Below, piece after piece: positions 1,173 through 8,001 of a stretch of 8,277 nt of DNA (the first letter of the stretch is position 1; each line of letters begins with the position of its first letter). A program made the position numbers and the translations under genes. The notes under the pieces are model-generated. The model had not been told where the DNA came from and did no database searches. It saw only the letters and a program-made list of their open reading frames with translations. The stretch is from a virus. Taxonomy: Duplodnaviria; Heunggongvirae; Uroviricota; Caudoviricetes. The stretch is taken from the IMG/VR virus record IMGVR_UViG_2740892421_000006, one strand, 5' to 3'.

Positions 1173-1451
1173 ATGAGCGAAAAAAAAACAACTTATTGCC
1201 AAGTGGCATTGTCTGATAAGGCCAATGAAAAACTTGGAAAATTTCAAATAAAACTCAAAGAGAAAAAAATTAAGATGTCTAAGGCTGAAGTTATCAATGC
1301 CATTCTGGAGACGATGACTATGGCTGAATTTGACAAAGTCACATCTGCCGTTGGGGTTTCCGCTAAGACGCGTGAGAAAATCATGCGCATCTATGAAAAC
1401 TCCAATATGACAAAAAAAGATTTAGAGGAAATACTGAGCAGGTTGCCGTAA
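1173..1451 (+). CDS. hypothetical small protein (92 aa), translationally coupled to helicase
   Basis: ATG 2 nt after the helicase stop; lysine-rich helical-looking protein; contains a 9-A homopolymer at 1180-1188 in codons 3-5. Function unknown. Confidence 0.55.
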   Translation: MSEKKTTYCQVALSDKANEKLGKFQIKLKEKKIKMSKAEVINAILETMTMAEFDKVTSAVGVSAKTREKIMRIYENSNMTKKDLEEILSRLP

Positions 1452-1483
1452 CATTTTATATTTACCCCCTATCTACTAATTCT

Positions 1484-1518
1484 ATGATGTGCTCACTTGT
1501 TAGAAAGGAGCACATCAT
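1484..1518 (+). promoter_or_regulatory. RBS/start-codon sequestering stem-loop
   Basis: Perfect 11-bp inverted repeat atgatgtgctc (1484-1494) / gagcacatcat (1508-1518) with a 13-nt loop; the 3' arm contains the SD (aaggag 1505-1510) and the AT of the ATG at 1517. Confidence 0.5.
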
Positions 1519-2083
1519 GAGTTGGTTAAAAGAATTATCATTTGTTGACACCACTGGCGCTAAGAAAAATCATTCTTTCTGGAAAGTCAGCGATCCTTCT
1601 GATTTTCTTGTTGGCGCTAATGCTGCTTTTGAATTGCTTAACTTTTATCAACGTTATCCTGAAATGAAACACAGTCCACTCCTGTACAGAATAACAAACG
1701 ATATGAATAGGTCTGGTTTATTATCAAGTGAGTCAGCGAAAGGCTTTTTTAGCAAAATTACGCCACATATATCATTCGATGCTGCAAACGAAATTGATTA
1801 TCTATCCACGAAACCTCAAGAACAATTATCTGTACCACCTGAGAAAAAAGAAAGACGAATTGCCAGCATTGAAAATATATCGAAAGAGCTTCGCACAACA
1901 ACGTTGAGGCTGCTGAACTTTCTTACGCTACTAAATTGGATAGATGATCAAACATTGATTCCATCAACCGATGCGTTGGATAACAGAGTCCTTAGGCTGA
2001 ACAAAAAATCGCAATTTGGTTTTGTGTTCACCAAAAAAGGTGAAGATTTAATCAAAAGAAAATATAGATTATTGAATGATTAA
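1517..2083 (+). CDS. hypothetical protein (188 aa from ATG 1517; ORF track start 1484)
   Basis: Strong SD aaggag 6 nt upstream of ATG 1517; the ORF-track start at 1484 lies inside the hairpin arm and lacks an SD. Stop TAA 2081-2083. No recognisable motifs. Confidence 0.6.
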   Translation: MSWLKELSFVDTTGAKKNHSFWKVSDPSDFLVGANAAFELLNFYQRYPEMKHSPLLYRITNDMNRSGLLSSESAKGFFSKITPHISFDAANEIDYLSTKPQEQLSVPPEKKERRIASIENISKELRTTTLRLLNFLTLLNWIDDQTLIPSTDALDNRVLRLNKKSQFGFVFTKKGEDLIKRKYRLLND

Positions 2084-2090
2084 TAGTCTA

Positions 2091-2138
2091 CATGCAGGTG
2101 TATGAGAGCACCTGCATGTGACATTCGTCACGTTTTTT
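2091..2138 (+). terminator. Rho-independent terminator
   Basis: Perfect 10-bp stem catgcaggtg (2091-2100) / cacctgcatg (2109-2118), 8-nt loop, then small hairpin tgac-attc-gtca and T-run cgttttttg to 2138; sits 8 nt after the stop of the 188-aa gene. Confidence 0.7.
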
Positions 2139-2223
2139 GAAACATATACCTCCGGCTGAAAAAAGATCTTGATTGGCTGAACGATATTTGTAGGCTTACC
2201 TATGTTTAGAACCGGAGGCATGA

Positions 2224-2799: not shown

Positions 2800-3219
2800 A
2801 TGAAAGCAAAAAACTTAATGATTCTAATGCTAACCACGTCACTAATTGGGTGTTCGTCTTCGTCTATATCTATTTCAAAGGCAAAGGATGCACCTCAAAG
2901 CAGAATATTTAAATATCAAACACTACATGAGTCTAGTCTAACAATAGTTCGAGACAAAGGGCTGGTTGGTTCTGCATGTAACGCTTCCATTTTCATCAAT
3001 GGAGAAACGGCTGCAAAGCTAGAACCTGGTGAAAAAGCAACTTTCTACCTTAACGAAGGAGAGTGGATCGTTGGGACATCAATTGAAAGTTCAGGTCTTT
3101 GCGCATTTAACCCCTCCAGGATGGAACGAGAAATAAAGCTAAAGCAGGGCGACTCGAAAACATATCGGGTTTTCACTACCTGGGATGGTACAATGGACAT
3201 ATTGCCAACCACTTTATAA
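2800..3219 (+). CDS. putative lipoprotein (139 aa), predicted outer-membrane sorted
   Basis: N-terminus MKAKNLMILMLTTSLIGCSSSS: hydrophobic h-region plus lipobox L-I-G-C; residue +2 after Cys is Ser (no Lol avoidance Asp). Stop TAA 3217-3219. Confidence 0.65.
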   Translation: MKAKNLMILMLTTSLIGCSSSSISISKAKDAPQSRIFKYQTLHESSLTIVRDKGLVGSACNASIFINGETAAKLEPGEKATFYLNEGEWIVGTSIESSGLCAFNPSRMEREIKLKQGDSKTYRVFTTWDGTMDILPTTL

Positions 3220-3748
3220 TGATATGACGACGAAAGATATCACCTACGGCATACCGGCTGAAGTATGGCCGCGAGACTACGAACATGCTGAACGCACCTT
3301 GCTCTTCTGGCGGAGAGCTAAATTTCCTGTAAGAGTCACTCTCGAAGACGGCCAAGTGTTTTGCATGTACGTTTATGGTCTCATGTCATCTCGTAACAAA
3401 GTTGACCTTTGTCCAACTCCATTTGACAAAGAAAATCGTATAAGGCTCCCACTTGAGCGCATTAGCACAATTGAATCAGGCGTAATTGATGGCATTGATT
3501 ACGATTTCAAAGGGAGACTAACAATACACCCTGACTATGTAGACAACCAGCCATCACGTCGTGACTTTTTTAAGATATGTCGCAAGGCTTATCAAAACGG
3601 CCAATCTATAAGGGTCTACATGGCAGACGGCCGCGAAATTGAGGGAACGTCAGATGGCGTTGATGCCTGCCTAGTCACACTTAAGTTGAACGACGGCAGA
3701 AAAATTCTTGTTTTCTTCGATTGGGTTGAACGAATTTTACCTTTTTGA
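3185..3748 (+). CDS. hypothetical protein with internal tandem repeat, possibly Rof/YaeO-like; start uncertain (3185 or 3224)
   Basis: Long ORF; the alternative ATG at 3224 lies 5 nt after the lipoprotein stop. Two similar segments (VRVTLEDGQ...NRIRLPLERISTIE and VTLKLNDGRKILVFFDWVERI). By memory the first resembles E. coli Rof (LTLELKDGE...SRKNVEY...RELRLDKITS); not verified. Confidence 0.55.
   Translation: MVQWTYCQPLYNDMTTKDITYGIPAEVWPRDYEHAERTLLFWRRAKFPVRVTLEDGQVFCMYVYGLMSSRNKVDLCPTPFDKENRIRLPLERISTIESGVIDGIDYDFKGRLTIHPDYVDNQPSRRDFFKICRKAYQNGQSIRVYMADGREIEGTSDGVDACLVTLKLNDGRKILVFFDWVERILPF
3692..3748. repeat. direct repeat copy 1 (3' end of the 187-aa gene)
   Basis: gacggcagaaaaattcttgttttcttcgatt... 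is ~93% identical to 4058-4114; this copy encodes the C-terminal DGRKILVFFDWVERILPF. Confidence 0.85.
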
Positions 3749-3751
3749 GTT

Positions 3752-4048
3752 ATGAAATCGATACTATTGACATCATTATTTTTAGTTTACTCAATTTCAG
3801 CCAATGCAAAGGATGATATTGCAATTATTAAGTCGCTGATGCATGACGTATGCTCAACGTCTCAGAATATTCCAGTTTGTATGTTTCAACTTTCAGCAGC
3901 AGTAAAACTAGGGATAAACATAGGTAAGACCGCTCAACTATGTGAACAGGTGGAAAATTATGAACCATGTGAATTGAACAACTCTTCATTGCTGTTCGTT
4001 GATGCGCTTTTTGACACCAATCGTAAGGCTGTAGAGTCAGTCCGATAA
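3752..4048 (+). CDS. small secreted 4-Cys protein (98 aa), paralog A
   Basis: Signal peptide MKSILLTSLFLVYSISANA with AxA-type cleavage site; mature part has Cys at 34, 43, 64, 73 (C-x8-C-x20-C-x8-C). Stop TAA 4046-4048. Confidence 0.6.
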   Translation: MKSILLTSLFLVYSISANAKDDIAIIKSLMHDVCSTSQNIPVCMFQLSAAVKLGINIGKTAQLCEQVENYEPCELNNSSLLFVDALFDTNRKAVESVR

Positions 4049-4057
4049 ATGTATGAA

Positions 4058-4114
4058 GACGGCAGAAAAATTCTTGTTTTCTTCGATTTGGTTGACCGAA
4101 TTTTACCGTTTTAG
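4058..4114. repeat. direct repeat copy 2 with 21-codon gene remnant
   Basis: Near-identical to 3692-3748; retains a remnant reading frame ATG 4049 ... TAG 4112-4114 encoding MYEDGRKILVFFDLVDRILPF, i.e. a duplicated 3' end of the 187-aa gene. Confidence 0.85.
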
Positions 4115-4123
4115 GATATTGAT

Positions 4124-5357: not shown

Positions 5358-5370
5358 TTAATGGAATCTT

Positions 5371-5391
5371 GCGCCCACTATGGGCGCTTTT
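5371..5391 (+). terminator. intercistronic hairpin (partial terminator/attenuator)
   Basis: gcgccca-cta-tgggcgc followed by only tttt, then immediately the SD aaggag (5392-5397) of the next gene; the same stem sequence as the terminator at 5641-5665. Confidence 0.5.
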
Positions 5392-5404: not shown

Positions 5405-5635
5405 ATGTTTATTCTTATCGCTGGCGTTAACGTGCGCAATGAATATTTTGTTAATCGCATCGCTGGGATCGCTGGTTACGCTGGGCGCGCAGTCGAGTTT
5501 ATCGATGAAACGACGCGCAAAATTGACTTATTGAGCGACCAGGAGCGAAAAAAAGCAGACGTGAATGACGCTGATATATTTTTAATGTTGAAAGCGTTTG
5601 TAGAAATGGGATTCAAAATTAGTTTACACAAATAA
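5405..5635 (+). CDS. hypothetical small protein (76 aa)
   Basis: SD aaggag 7 nt upstream of ATG 5405 (MFILIAGVNVR...); the ORF-track start at 5369 falls within the upstream hairpin. Stop TAA 5633-5635. Confidence 0.55.
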   Translation: MFILIAGVNVRNEYFVNRIAGIAGYAGRAVEFIDETTRKIDLLSDQERKKADVNDADIFLMLKAFVEMGFKISLHK

Positions 5636-5640
5636 AATCG

Positions 5641-5665
5641 AGCGCCCACTATGGGCGCTTTTTTC
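5641..5665 (+). terminator. Rho-independent terminator
   Basis: Stem agcgccca (5641-5648) / tgggcgct (5652-5659), 3-nt loop, then a T6 run; 6 nt after the stop of the 76-aa gene. Confidence 0.75.
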
Positions 5666-5685
5666 GTTTCCAATACTCCCACCAT

Positions 5686-5712
5686 AACGCGCCATCATTG
5701 GCGCGTTTTTTA
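5686..5712 (+). terminator. second (tandem) Rho-independent terminator
   Basis: 8-bp GC-rich stem aacgcgcc (5686-5693) / ggcgcgtt (5700-5707), loop atcatt, then ttttttatt. Confidence 0.7.
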
Positions 5713-5980
5713 TTGTCTTTAACTCGCTCCAACAACATAAAAATAAGCACCAAAATAACGCCATAGACGCACTTTTATATCCTTACCAGTACATACCCAT
5801 TACTTAACACATTAACGCGCTTAAAACGCGTTATATTGCGCTATAGAGTATGGTTAATCATTGGCTTTTAGTCTTGCTATGTGATCCGCGTTTATTTGTC
5901 GGCGCGGATCGGTTCTTTGTGTTGTTTTGTATCCGCTCGCGTATTATGTGCGCGTGATTTTTCACATAATCACACCACTT

Positions 5981-6855: not shown

Positions 6856-6932
6856 CCTGGAGGTAAGAGGTTGGTGTTTTTAGCCTGCGGGAAACAGGAT
6901 GGTCATTTAAGGCCACCAATGCTGATGGCCTT
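6856..6932. repeat. cassette-flanking repeat, left copy (hairpin-forming)
   Basis: ctggaggtaaga ... ggtcatttaaggccaccaatgctgatggcctt; the core matches 7967-8001 with 3 substitutions; lies immediately 3' (minus sense) of the 310-aa gene stop (TGA 6937-6939). Confidence 0.8.
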
Positions 6933-7949: not shown

Positions 7950-8001
7950 CTGGAAGTAAGGCAAAGGGTGGTCATTTAAGACCACCAATGCTGGTGGCCT
8001 T
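7950..8001. repeat. cassette-flanking repeat, right copy (tandem hairpins, contains Chi octamer)
   Basis: ctggaagtaagg ... ggtggtc-atttaa-gaccacc (7967-7986) overlapping ccacca-atgc-tggtgg (7982-7997); GCTGGTGG at 7990-7997. Relative to the left copy it lacks an ~18-22-bp internal segment. Confidence 0.8.

What the first reader, a model, noticed from the sequence alone, without database searches (positions are those of the whole stretch)
1484..1519. Perfect 11-bp stem-loop occluding the SD and start codon of the 188-aa gene
The inverted repeat 1484-1494 / 1508-1518 would pair the Shine-Dalgarno sequence and the first two nucleotides of the start codon in the mRNA. It is not followed by a T-run, so it looks like a translational control element rather than a terminator. 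Translation would then depend on ribosomes arriving from upstream, on an RNA-binding factor or on temperature.
Basis: seen in the sequence. Interest (0 to 1): 0.45.

Follow-up and report, generated by a model that had tools for sequence, protein, structure and literature searches.

The report
Hairpin silencing a phage-plasmid gene start
A very stable, evolutionarily conserved RNA hairpin buries the ribosome-binding site and start codon of a 188-aa gene in an SSU5-like E. coli phage-plasmid. It sits exactly where RNA levels fall after the upstream operon, so it most likely insulates the gene from upstream read-through, a known kind of control best documented in phage T4.

Summary
Bases 1484-1494 and 1508-1518 form a perfect 11-bp stem. 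With flanking pairs the helix reaches 19 bp (-23.4 kcal/mol, z -6.9) and buries the whole Shine-Dalgarno sequence and the AUG at 1517.

The window is an SSU5/pHCM2-like phage-plasmid, about 97% identical here to phage Cyrano of E. coli LF82. Among 114 genes of a near-identical plasmid, this start site is the hardest to open (25 versus a median of 5 kcal/mol).

The hairpin is kept in every lineage examined that carries a homologue, down to 35% protein identity. It shows a compensatory G-C to C-G swap, G-U wobbles readable only on the + strand, and loops of 13, 14 or 25 nt. A Pectobacterium relative has a different stem with the same geometry.

Published LF82 RNA-seq shows 7-40-fold less RNA for this gene than for the 92-aa gene just upstream. 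Lineages lacking the gene have an ordinary terminator at this junction.

Best reading: the hairpin blocks translation of read-through RNA and probably caps the 3' end of the upstream transcript. How the gene is switched on is unknown; a promoter inside the 5' arm, as in T4, is possible. Temperature sensing and translational coupling are excluded. This is a new member of a known kind.

The parts
1173..1451 (+). Upstream 92-aa gene (phrog_1466, function unknown; CYRAN_117 in phage Cyrano). It follows the helicase gene after a 2-nt gap and is transcribed in lysogens.
   Evidence: ORF list; PHROG match; Cyrano annotation; LF82 RNA-seq, where it is listed as a 'moron' at 12x local background.
1461..1469 (+). 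Conserved T-rich/C-run motif (TTTACCCCC; CTTTTTCCCC in relatives; CTTCTTCCCC in Pectobacterium). It always lies 13 nt upstream of the -10-like hexamer at the foot of the 5' arm. Role unexplained: a possible -35-like element or a single-stranded protein or ribosome landing site.
   Evidence: Alignments; Pectobacterium sequence. The strict pattern TTT[AT][CT]CCCC matches nowhere else on the + strand of the 116-kb plasmid and once on the - strand.
1461..1488 (+). Sigma-70-like promoter candidate TTTACC-16 nt-TATGAT. Its -10 hexamer overlaps the bulged U1483 and the first 5 nt of the 5' arm. The predicted start near A1495 would give an mRNA lacking the 5' arm. Hypothetical.
   Evidence: Consensus scan, 9/12 matches, with the number of such hits in the region not above chance. 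The hexamer is weaker in relatives (CATCAT with TTTTTC/TTTTCC). No TSS data.
1478..1482 (+). Outer helix, 5' strand (AAUUC). Pairs with 1519-1523.
   Evidence: MFE fold. The equivalent outer pairs covary in relatives (AATTC/GAATT, AGTTC/GAACT, with G-U variants).
1484..1494 (+). 5' arm of the core stem (AUGAUGUGCUC).
   Evidence: Invariant in the 14 of 15 variants whose gene is intact, apart from one compensatory position; the deletion derivative L002 also carries T->A at position 2 and a C->T wobble at the stem top.
1495..1507 (+). Loop of the core stem. It contains an inner 3-bp helix (1496-1498/1505-1507) and the first part of the Shine-Dalgarno sequence. Sequence and length vary among relatives (13, 14 or 25 nt).
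1504..1510 (+). Shine-Dalgarno sequence AAAGGAG, 6 nt before the AUG. Positions 1505-1510 are paired in the MFE structure.
1508..1518 (+). 3' arm of the core stem (GAGCACAUCAU). It holds GAG of the SD, the spacer and AU of the start codon.
1519..1523 (+). Outer helix, 3' strand (GAGUU): G of the AUG plus codon 2 and the first base of codon 3.
1517..2083 (+). The controlled gene: 188 aa, phrog_13473, no Pfam match, found only in SSU5-like phage-plasmids. The predicted C-terminal domain resembles a MerR-type winged helix DNA-binding domain.
2090..2139 (+). Gene-end signals: a perfect 11-bp hairpin (2090-2100/2109-2119) overlapping an intrinsic terminator (stem 2116-2133 followed by T6). Together with the upstream hairpin they bracket the 188-aa gene as a self-contained cassette.
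   Evidence: (plasmid coordinates 77846-77875).

Best explanation
The element works as an RNA hairpin on the + strand transcript and insulates the 188-aa gene from the upstream helicase/92-aa operon, which is transcribed in lysogens.

Step 1 (shown in silico and by comparative analysis). Any transcript containing both arms folds into a 19-bp helix that buries the Shine-Dalgarno sequence and the AUG. Opening the site costs about 25 kcal/mol, so 30S subunits cannot initiate.

Step 2 (inferred, consistent with published RNA-seq). The start of the ORF stays ribosome-free, so read-through RNA is terminated by Rho and/or degraded. The U-tract-less stem-loop remains as the exonuclease-resistant 3' end of the upstream mRNA. 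RNA abundance therefore drops sharply at the hairpin.

Step 3 (inferred, weakest). The gene is expressed only from RNA whose 5' end lies inside the hairpin. The most likely source is a promoter whose -10 element overlaps the foot of the 5' arm (TTTACC-16-TATGAT, start near 1495), as in T4 genes e and I-TevI. The alternative is endonucleolytic processing.

My probabilities: step 1 about 0.85, step 2 about 0.6, the embedded-promoter version of step 3 about 0.35.
For: - Stability: dG -23.4 kcal/mol, z -6.85. The hairpin is retained in longer context.
- RBS-opening energy is 25.1 kcal/mol, rank 1 of 114 genes in the near-identical plasmid NZ_CP075739.1 (median 5.3, sd 3.1).
- Conservation: 15 distinct upstream sequences from E. 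coli, Salmonella, Klebsiella, Enterobacter, Citrobacter and Cronobacter elements keep the hairpin at the same place, with dG_open 16-26, although the proteins are only 35-45% identical.
- Pairing evidence: core pair 11-53 is CG in 10 and GC in 5 sequences. One-sided changes are all G-U on the + strand (L056, L002 in the core; L006, L031 in the outer helix). Outer pair 5-59 is AU 3 / GC 3 / GU 1 / UA 1. The covariation score exceeds all 500 shuffles.
- Loop length varies (13, 14, 25 nt) while the arms are kept.
- Pectobacterium plasmid Drgb1: the syntenic gene, homologous only in the N-terminal domain, has an unrelated 10-bp stem (TTATTATTCC/GGAATAATAA) that again ends at the A of the ATG (dG_open 12.9).
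- A non-homologous 154-aa gene at the same junction (L007/L071 type) also has its SD in a hairpin (dG_open 12.7). Lineages with an intrinsic terminator right after the 92-aa gene have an ordinary RBS on the next gene (3.9-4.3).
- RNA-seq of LF82/Cyrano, whose intergenic sequence differs by 1 nt: log2(FPKM+5) for CYRAN_117 versus CYRAN_116 is 7.22/6.32 vs 3.71/2.32, 8.86/9.15 vs 3.98/4.24, 9.86/9.94 vs 5.77/5.66, 8.80/9.02 vs 5.77/5.59 and 8.64/8.73 vs 5.85/5.86. CYRAN_117 also exceeds the helicase gene CYRAN_118 (PMC9928086 S1 Table).
- E. coli Rho-dependent transcripts end just after stable stem-loops that lack U-tracts (PMC6061677).
- T4 precedent for RBS-sequestering hairpins with promoters embedded in the 5' arm (PMC3014915, PMC2988022).
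- The gene has its own terminator, as expected of an independently expressed cassette.
Against: - There is no nucleotide-resolution 5' or 3' end data. Gene-level RNA-seq cannot separate termination, decay or weak promoter activity.
- The promoter-like match is not above chance in the scan (5 hits versus 4.5 expected) and is weaker in the other clade (CATCAT; poor -35).
- The -10-likeness of the 5' arm is partly forced by complementarity to an A/T-rich spacer plus AU of the AUG.
- C/G bias downstream is only mildly above 1, so a rut site is not evident.
- The near-invariance of the 11-bp core is stronger than simple occlusion requires, which hints at an additional, unidentified constraint.
- Folding energies are equilibrium predictions that ignore proteins and co-transcriptional kinetics.
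Confidence: 0.6

Rival explanations
1. The hairpin is only a transcript-end element: a U-tract-less terminator or 3'-end stabiliser of the helicase/92-aa mRNA. Its overlap with the next gene's ribosome-binding site is incidental.
For: RNA falls 7-40-fold across the junction, and the 92-aa gene's RNA exceeds the helicase gene's. Other lineages have a canonical terminator at this position. Rho-dependent 3' ends lie after U-less stem-loops.
Against: A 3'-end hairpin has no need to contain the next gene's SD and AUG. Yet three unrelated stems at this junction (window type, Pectobacterium, L007 type) are all locked to the SD or start codon. The outer helix extends into codons 2-3 with covariation at synonymous sites. 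The hairpin is co-inherited with homologues of the 188-aa gene, whereas the 92-aa gene also occurs without it.
Confidence: 0.15
2. The element is a DNA palindrome acting as a protein operator, for example autoregulation by the 188-aa protein, whose C-terminal domain looks like a MerR-type winged helix. It would act on transcription, and the RNA hairpin would be a by-product.
Against: - Half-site spacing is 13, 14 or 25 bp, which is incompatible with a rigid dimer.
- All one-sided substitutions are G-U on the + strand and would be mismatched half-sites in DNA.
- Pairing extends to 16-18 bp into the coding region with covariation.
- The arm occurs nowhere else in the plasmid beyond chance.
- The Pectobacterium homologue lacks the winged-helix domain yet keeps an RBS-locked hairpin.
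- This reading can coexist with the RNA function.
Confidence: 0.1
3. The hairpin is an RNase III (or other endonuclease) processing site. Cleavage in the 16-19-bp helix separates the upstream message and frees the ribosome-binding site, so processing activates translation, as in the lambda N leader or E. coli adhE (from my own knowledge).
For: Helix length is 16-19 bp in most variants. It lies between two cistrons of a phage element. Sequence conservation could reflect nuclease determinants.
Against: The core helix is perfect, without the internal loops typical of phage RNase III sites. The gene's RNA level is low rather than processed and stable. No data on cleavage.
Confidence: 0.1
4. The hairpin is a riboregulator opened in trans. 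A small RNA or protein would pair with or bind the 5' arm (anti-antisense activation, as for rpoS with DsrA/RprA) or the conserved pyrimidine tract, releasing the RBS on induction.
For: There is unexplained sequence invariance of the stem, and a conserved single-stranded CUUUUUCCCC motif 13-14 nt upstream.
Against: No complementary sequence beyond chance elsewhere in the plasmid. No Rfam family match. Invading a -23 kcal/mol helix is difficult.
Confidence: 0.05

Closest known systems
RBS-sequestering hairpins of phage T4 late genes (e/lysozyme, soc, 25, 26, 39) and homing-endonuclease genes (I-TevI, I-TevII, I-TevIII, segB; mobE of Aeh1) (PMC3014915, PMC2988022)
   Same: A very stable stem-loop holds the SD and/or AUG of a gene lying downstream of an actively transcribed unit with no terminator between, so read-through transcripts are not translated. 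A -10-like element lies in the DNA encoding the 5' strand of the stem. The controlled gene is an accessory or cargo gene.
   Different: The element is a temperate siphovirus-type phage-plasmid using host sigma-70, not T4 with its gp55 late promoters (TATAAATA). The embedded promoter is unproven and weak in most relatives. Here RNA abundance also drops at the hairpin, suggesting a coupled transcript-end role.
[quoted passage not shown]
   Same: An energetically stable stem-loop without a U-rich tail sits at the end of a gene where steady-state RNA falls.
   Different: Those structures are not described as containing the next gene's ribosome-binding site. Rho dependence and exact 3' ends are untested here.
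Translation-gated Rho-dependent polarity (for example sRNA ChiX on chiPQ, or Mg2+/riboswitch leaders; from my own knowledge)
   Same: Blocking initiation at an RBS exposes the downstream ORF to Rho, so a translational block is converted into a transcriptional one.
   Different: Here the block would be constitutive and cis-encoded, not imposed by a ligand or an sRNA.
T1 stem-loop between cei and cel in the ColE7 operon (PMC2896534)
   Same: An intercistronic stem-loop on a mobile element lowers expression of a potentially harmful downstream gene at both the transcriptional and translational levels.
   Different: T1 is described as a terminator, and the translational repression needs CsrA binding to GGA motifs in the loop and at the SD. 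The present hairpin pairs the SD directly and has no demonstrated protein partner.

Membership tests
RBS-sequestering hairpin with embedded promoter (T4 e / I-TevI type) | A stable stem-loop that pairs the Shine-Dalgarno sequence and/or start codon | tested here: met
   19-bp helix, -23.4 kcal/mol. AAGGAG of the SD AAAGGAG and the AUG are paired. dG_open is 25.1, rank 1 of 114.
RBS-sequestering hairpin with embedded promoter (T4 e / I-TevI type) | The gene is reached by transcripts from an upstream unit, with no terminator in between | tested here: met
   No terminator-like site lies between 1451 and 1517. The upstream 92-aa gene is transcribed in lysogens.
RBS-sequestering hairpin with embedded promoter (T4 e / I-TevI type) | A promoter in the DNA encoding the 5' strand, so that its transcripts lack the 5' arm | tested here: inconclusive
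   TTTACC-16-TATGAT (1461-1488) matches 9/12 but is not above chance. Relatives have CATCAT with a poor -35. There is fixed 13-nt spacing to a conserved motif. No TSS data.
RBS-sequestering hairpin with embedded promoter (T4 e / I-TevI type) | Disrupting the stem raises translation and compensatory changes restore repression | not testable with these tools
   Needs reporter fusions.
Intrinsic (Rho-independent) terminator | A stem-loop followed directly by a U-tract | tested here: not met
   The sequence after the stem is GAGTTGGTTAAAAG (window) or GAACTATTTAGC (relatives). The scan finds no terminator here, and none of the 15 variants has a T-run.
Protective 3' stem-loop of a Rho-dependent transcript | A stable stem-loop without a U-rich tail at a steady-state RNA 3' end | tested here: inconclusive
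   The structure criterion is met. Gene-level RNA-seq shows a 7-40-fold drop across it, but no nucleotide-resolution 3' ends are available.
Protective 3' stem-loop of a Rho-dependent transcript | Rho dependence (bicyclomycin sensitivity) and a C-rich, G-poor rut region just downstream | tested here: inconclusive
   The C/G ratio is 1.07-1.38 in the 78-nt windows starting 1533-1613, against 0.64-0.85 in the windows starting 1173-1293 inside the 92-aa gene. This is a weak signal. Rho dependence is not testable here.
RNA thermometer | An SD-occluding structure that melts within the physiological temperature range | tested here: not met
   The predicted unpaired fraction of the 3' arm is 0.7% at 37 C, 0.8% at 42 C and still only 6% at 80 C.
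Translational coupling (an upstream ORF's ribosomes open the structure) | An upstream ORF is translated into or up to the inhibitory helix | tested here: not met
   The 92-aa ORF stops at 1449-1451. Frame 2 has a stop at 1477, and frame 0 has no start before 1484.
Palindromic DNA operator of a dimeric regulator | Constant half-site spacing, with symmetric substitutions only | tested here: not met
   Spacing is 13, 14 or 25 bp. One-sided transitions give G-U on the + strand only.
Any curated RNA family (Rfam 15) | A covariance-model match at or near 1478-1523 | tested here: not met
   cmscan of the whole window at E<=1 gives three weak hits elsewhere and none here.

The most novel reading that the evidence does not exclude
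The near-invariant 11-bp stem and the conserved upstream CUUUUUCCCC tract may be recognised specifically, not just structurally. In that case the hairpin would be a dedicated switch, opened on lytic induction by a phage- or host-encoded factor (protein, nuclease or sRNA) to release a MerR-like DNA-binding protein. More generally, SSU5-type phage-plasmids may use RBS-occluding, U-tract-less hairpins as an interchangeable alternative to intrinsic terminators to insulate cargo genes at variable junctions.
Probability: 0.15. Interest if true: 0.55.

Novelty: new member of a known kind. Interest (0 to 1): 0.35.

Why it matters
SSU5/pHCM2-like phage-plasmids are widespread in clinical Enterobacteriaceae, and almost nothing is known about how their genes are regulated. 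This hairpin is a clear, testable cis-element.

It explains why a gene directly downstream of a lysogeny-expressed operon is silent. It shows that a junction downstream of the helicase/92-aa operon is insulated either by a terminator or by an RBS-occluding hairpin. It also flags the 188-aa putative DNA-binding protein as something the element keeps tightly off in the plasmid state.

Practically, it corrects the start codon used in some annotations (199 aa versus 188 aa). It also warns that RNA presence or read-through does not imply translation of this gene.

Tried and rejected
- RNA thermometer: rejected, because the stem is predicted closed up to 80 C.
- Translational coupling or an upstream ORF: rejected by reading-frame geometry.
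- Intrinsic terminator: rejected, because no U-tract occurs in any variant.
- Repeated operator or motif family: the arm is unique in the 116-kb plasmid, and other matches are at chance level.
- Known RNA family: no Rfam hit.
- Larger conserved RNA structure involving the upstream motif: RNAalifold finds only the hairpin.
- Function of the two flanking proteins by sequence: no Pfam, no informative PHROG, no PDB sequence match. Only a fold-level resemblance of the C-terminal domain to MerR-type winged helices.
- Genome-contig scan with the protein alignment returned only one locus, so diversity came from viral contigs, plasmids and exact-protein look-ups.
- The second SD/AUG-occluding hairpin (before the DUF4942 gene) was checked as a possible family-wide rule. 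It is absent from SSU5 and Klebsiella pJN2-26, so it is lineage-specific.
- Rho rut prediction from C/G content was inconclusive.
- A literature search found no description of this element.

Full report
**What the window is.** The 8.3-kb window matches about 110-kb non-mobilizable IncFIB-type plasmids of E. coli at 96-99% identity, and hundreds of related plasmids of Klebsiella, Enterobacter, Salmonella and others. It also matches the phages Cyrano (pLF82), PhiR41_1 and CMS-2020a at 97-98%. It is therefore part of an SSU5/pHCM2-like phage-plasmid. Locally, a DEAD/DEAH (UvsW-like) helicase gene, cut by the window edge, ends at 1170. A 92-aa gene follows at 1173-1451, then the 188-aa gene at 1517-2083, then further small genes including an FljA-like repressor.

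**Checking the observation.** The two 11-nt arms (1484-1494 and 1508-1518) are exact reverse complements.
- Folding adds an outer 5-bp helix (1478-1482/1519-1523, U1483 bulged) and an inner 3-bp helix (1496-1498/1505-1507). AAGGAG of the Shine-Dalgarno sequence and the complete AUG are then paired.
- dG is -23.4 kcal/mol, z -6.85 against shuffles. The hairpin survives in a 221-nt context.
- Perfect hairpins of this size are expected 0.06 times per window by chance; two are present.
- In the near-identical plasmid NZ_CP075739.1, I computed the cost of forcing positions -14..+3 open for all 114 annotated genes. This gene ranks first, at 25.1 kcal/mol against a median of 5.3 and sd of 3.1.

**Is it selected, and at which level?** The 188-aa protein family is small and confined to these phage-plasmids. 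I collected 15 distinct versions of the upstream region from plasmids, viral contigs and assemblies.
- Proteins are only 35-45% identical between clades, yet the hairpin is always present at the same place, with dG_open 16-26.
- The core shows one fully compensatory pair (CG in 10 sequences, GC in 5). There are two one-sided changes that give G-U.
- The outer helix, which runs into codons 2-3, covaries with synonymous codon changes (AATTC/GAATT, AGTTC/GAACT) and again uses G-U.
- All wobble pairs are G-U on the + strand. They would be A-C mismatches on the other strand and asymmetric half-sites in DNA.
- The loop varies in sequence and in length (13, 14, 25 nt).
- In Pectobacterium plasmid Drgb1 the syntenic gene shares only the N-terminal domain. 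It is preceded by an unrelated perfect 10-bp stem whose 3' arm again runs from the SD to the A of the ATG (dG_open 12.9).

Together these results indicate selection for an RNA structure locked to the translation start, not for a DNA-binding site. The arm sequence is not repeated elsewhere in the plasmid, and no Rfam family matches.

**Context at the junction.** Downstream of the 92-aa gene, different lineages carry different things:
- the 188-aa gene with this hairpin;
- a non-homologous 154-aa gene whose SD lies in a 7-bp hairpin (dG_open 12.7);
- or a canonical intrinsic terminator, followed by a gene with an ordinary RBS (3.9-4.3).

The upstream operon thus ends here one way or another. Where no terminator exists, the next gene's RBS is masked. 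The 188-aa gene also has its own terminator (2116-2133 plus T6, preceded by another perfect 11-bp hairpin). It therefore looks like a self-contained cassette. A deletion derivative (L002) has lost the gene but kept both the hairpin and the terminator.

**Expression data.** Phage Cyrano of E. coli LF82 has the same intergenic sequence apart from one base. In the RNA-seq table of Misson et al. (PMC9928086, S1 Table), the 92-aa gene (CYRAN_117) is one of the lysogeny-expressed 'morons'. The 188-aa gene (CYRAN_116) is near background.
- In five conditions, each in duplicate, log2(FPKM+5) falls from 6.3-9.9 to 2.3-5.9. That is roughly 7-40-fold in linear terms.
- CYRAN_117 is also more abundant than the helicase gene just upstream, as expected if a stable 3' fragment accumulates.
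- In E. coli, Rho-dependent transcripts end right after stable stem-loops that lack U-tracts (PMC6061677).

A blocked RBS leaves the ORF's 5' region ribosome-free, which is the condition for Rho loading and for rapid decay. The two roles reinforce each other. Direct evidence for Rho is lacking, and the C/G bias downstream is weak.

**How the gene could be switched on.**
- Ribosomes from upstream cannot help. The 92-aa ORF stops 27-33 nt before the helix, and no other ORF crosses the 5' arm.
- Heat cannot help, because the helix is predicted closed up to 80 C.
- The intergenic region is only 65 nt and the helix occupies 1478-1523. Any promoter placed there must overlap the 5' arm and start inside the hairpin. 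This is the solution used by T4 for e, soc, I-TevI and others (PMC3014915, PMC2988022).
- A sigma-70-like match TTTACC-16-TATGAT (1461-1488) would start transcription at about A1495, giving a 22-nt leader with a free SD.
- In its favour: a conserved T-rich/C-run motif lies at a fixed 13 nt from the hexamer in all lineages, including Pectobacterium, and a purine occupies the predicted start. Dual use of the arms (promoter core on one side, SD-spacer-AUG on the other) would also explain why the core is frozen in sequence.
- Against it: the match is not above chance, it is weaker in the other clade (CATCAT), and the hexamer's A/T pattern is partly imposed by pairing with the spacer and AU of the AUG.

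I rate this version at about one third. RNase III-type processing or a trans-acting opener are the alternatives.

- the half-site spacing varies;
- the G-U substitutions are strand-specific;
- pairing extends 16-18 bp into the coding sequence;
- the Pectobacterium protein lacks this domain but keeps an RBS-locked hairpin.

**Verdict.** The interpretation as an RBS-occluding control element is supported. Two of the proposed release mechanisms are excluded, and the element probably also marks a transcript boundary. Mechanistically it belongs to a well-known kind (T4-type RBS sequestration, combined with a Rho-type 3' stem-loop). It is a new example in a poorly studied but clinically common phage-plasmid family, so it is of moderate interest.

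Noticed in passing
L050:45269-45312 (NZ_CP075739.1 95269-95312, - strand); outside the window: A second perfect hairpin (16 bp, 12-nt loop; ATAATTGCACCATTAA/TTAATGGTGCAATTAT) whose 3' arm ends at AU of the start codon of the DUF4942/DNA-methylase-like gene. It ranks 2 of 114 for RBS-opening energy (18.8 kcal/mol). In Cyrano RNA-seq the RNA also drops across it (CYRAN_89 to CYRAN_90). An extended -10-like TGAAATAAT sits at the foot of its 5' arm. It is absent from SSU5 and Klebsiella pJN2-26, so it is lineage-specific.
   Followed up: partly
window 2090-2139: A perfect 11-bp hairpin (ACATGCAGGTG/CACCTGCATGT) lies directly after the stop codon of the 188-aa gene. It overlaps a small intrinsic terminator (GTGAC-ATTC-GTCAC plus T6), forming a tandem gene-end structure.
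   Followed up: partly
window 1461-1469 and equivalents in L003-L006, L031, L046, L054: A conserved pyrimidine motif (C)TTTTTCCCC / TTTACCCCC lies at a fixed distance upstream of the hairpin in all lineages, including Pectobacterium. It is single-stranded in the consensus fold and its function is unexplained.
   Followed up: partly
junction after the 92-aa gene: window 1452-1516; L007, L071, L087, L091, L099, L103: This junction is a cargo hotspot. Lineages carry the 188-aa gene, a 154-aa gene, or a terminator followed by a 140-aa gene starting MKHALLPL. The next gene's RBS is masked whenever no terminator is present.
   Followed up: partly
window 1484-1516: Some records (Cyrano CYRAN_116; protein cluster P0023, 199 aa) start the gene at the ATG in the 5' arm (1484). 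This extension is not conserved (it is out of frame in relatives with 14-nt loops) and has no SD. The 188-aa start at 1517 is the supported one.
   Followed up: yes
window 1517-2083: The 188-aa protein is predicted to have two domains joined by a disordered linker (residues 86-112). The C-terminal domain resembles MerR-type winged-helix DNA-binding domains (pSK1 Par, RacA). The Pectobacterium homologue has only the N-terminal domain.
   Followed up: partly
L002:1802-1990 (CP057560.1): A natural deletion derivative has lost almost the entire 188-aa gene. It retains the upstream hairpin (with a G-U at the top of the stem) and the downstream terminator region.
   Followed up: partly
window 3692-3753 / 4058-4119; 5360-5391 / 5631-5662; 6896-6932 / 7965-8001: Three pairs of direct repeats (62 nt at 90%, 32 nt at 88%, 37 nt at 92%). 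The last two contain GC-rich hairpins (GCGCCCACTATGGGCGC+TTTT; GGCCACCAATGCTGATGGCC) and look like duplicated terminator modules between small cargo genes. A weak sub-threshold isrK/ncS025 Rfam hit overlaps 5641-5715.
   Followed up: no
window 3185-3748: The gene has a strong match to Pfam Flag1_repress (FljA-like repressor of phase-1 flagellin, E 3e-80). This is a candidate host-modulating gene on the phage-plasmid.
   Followed up: no
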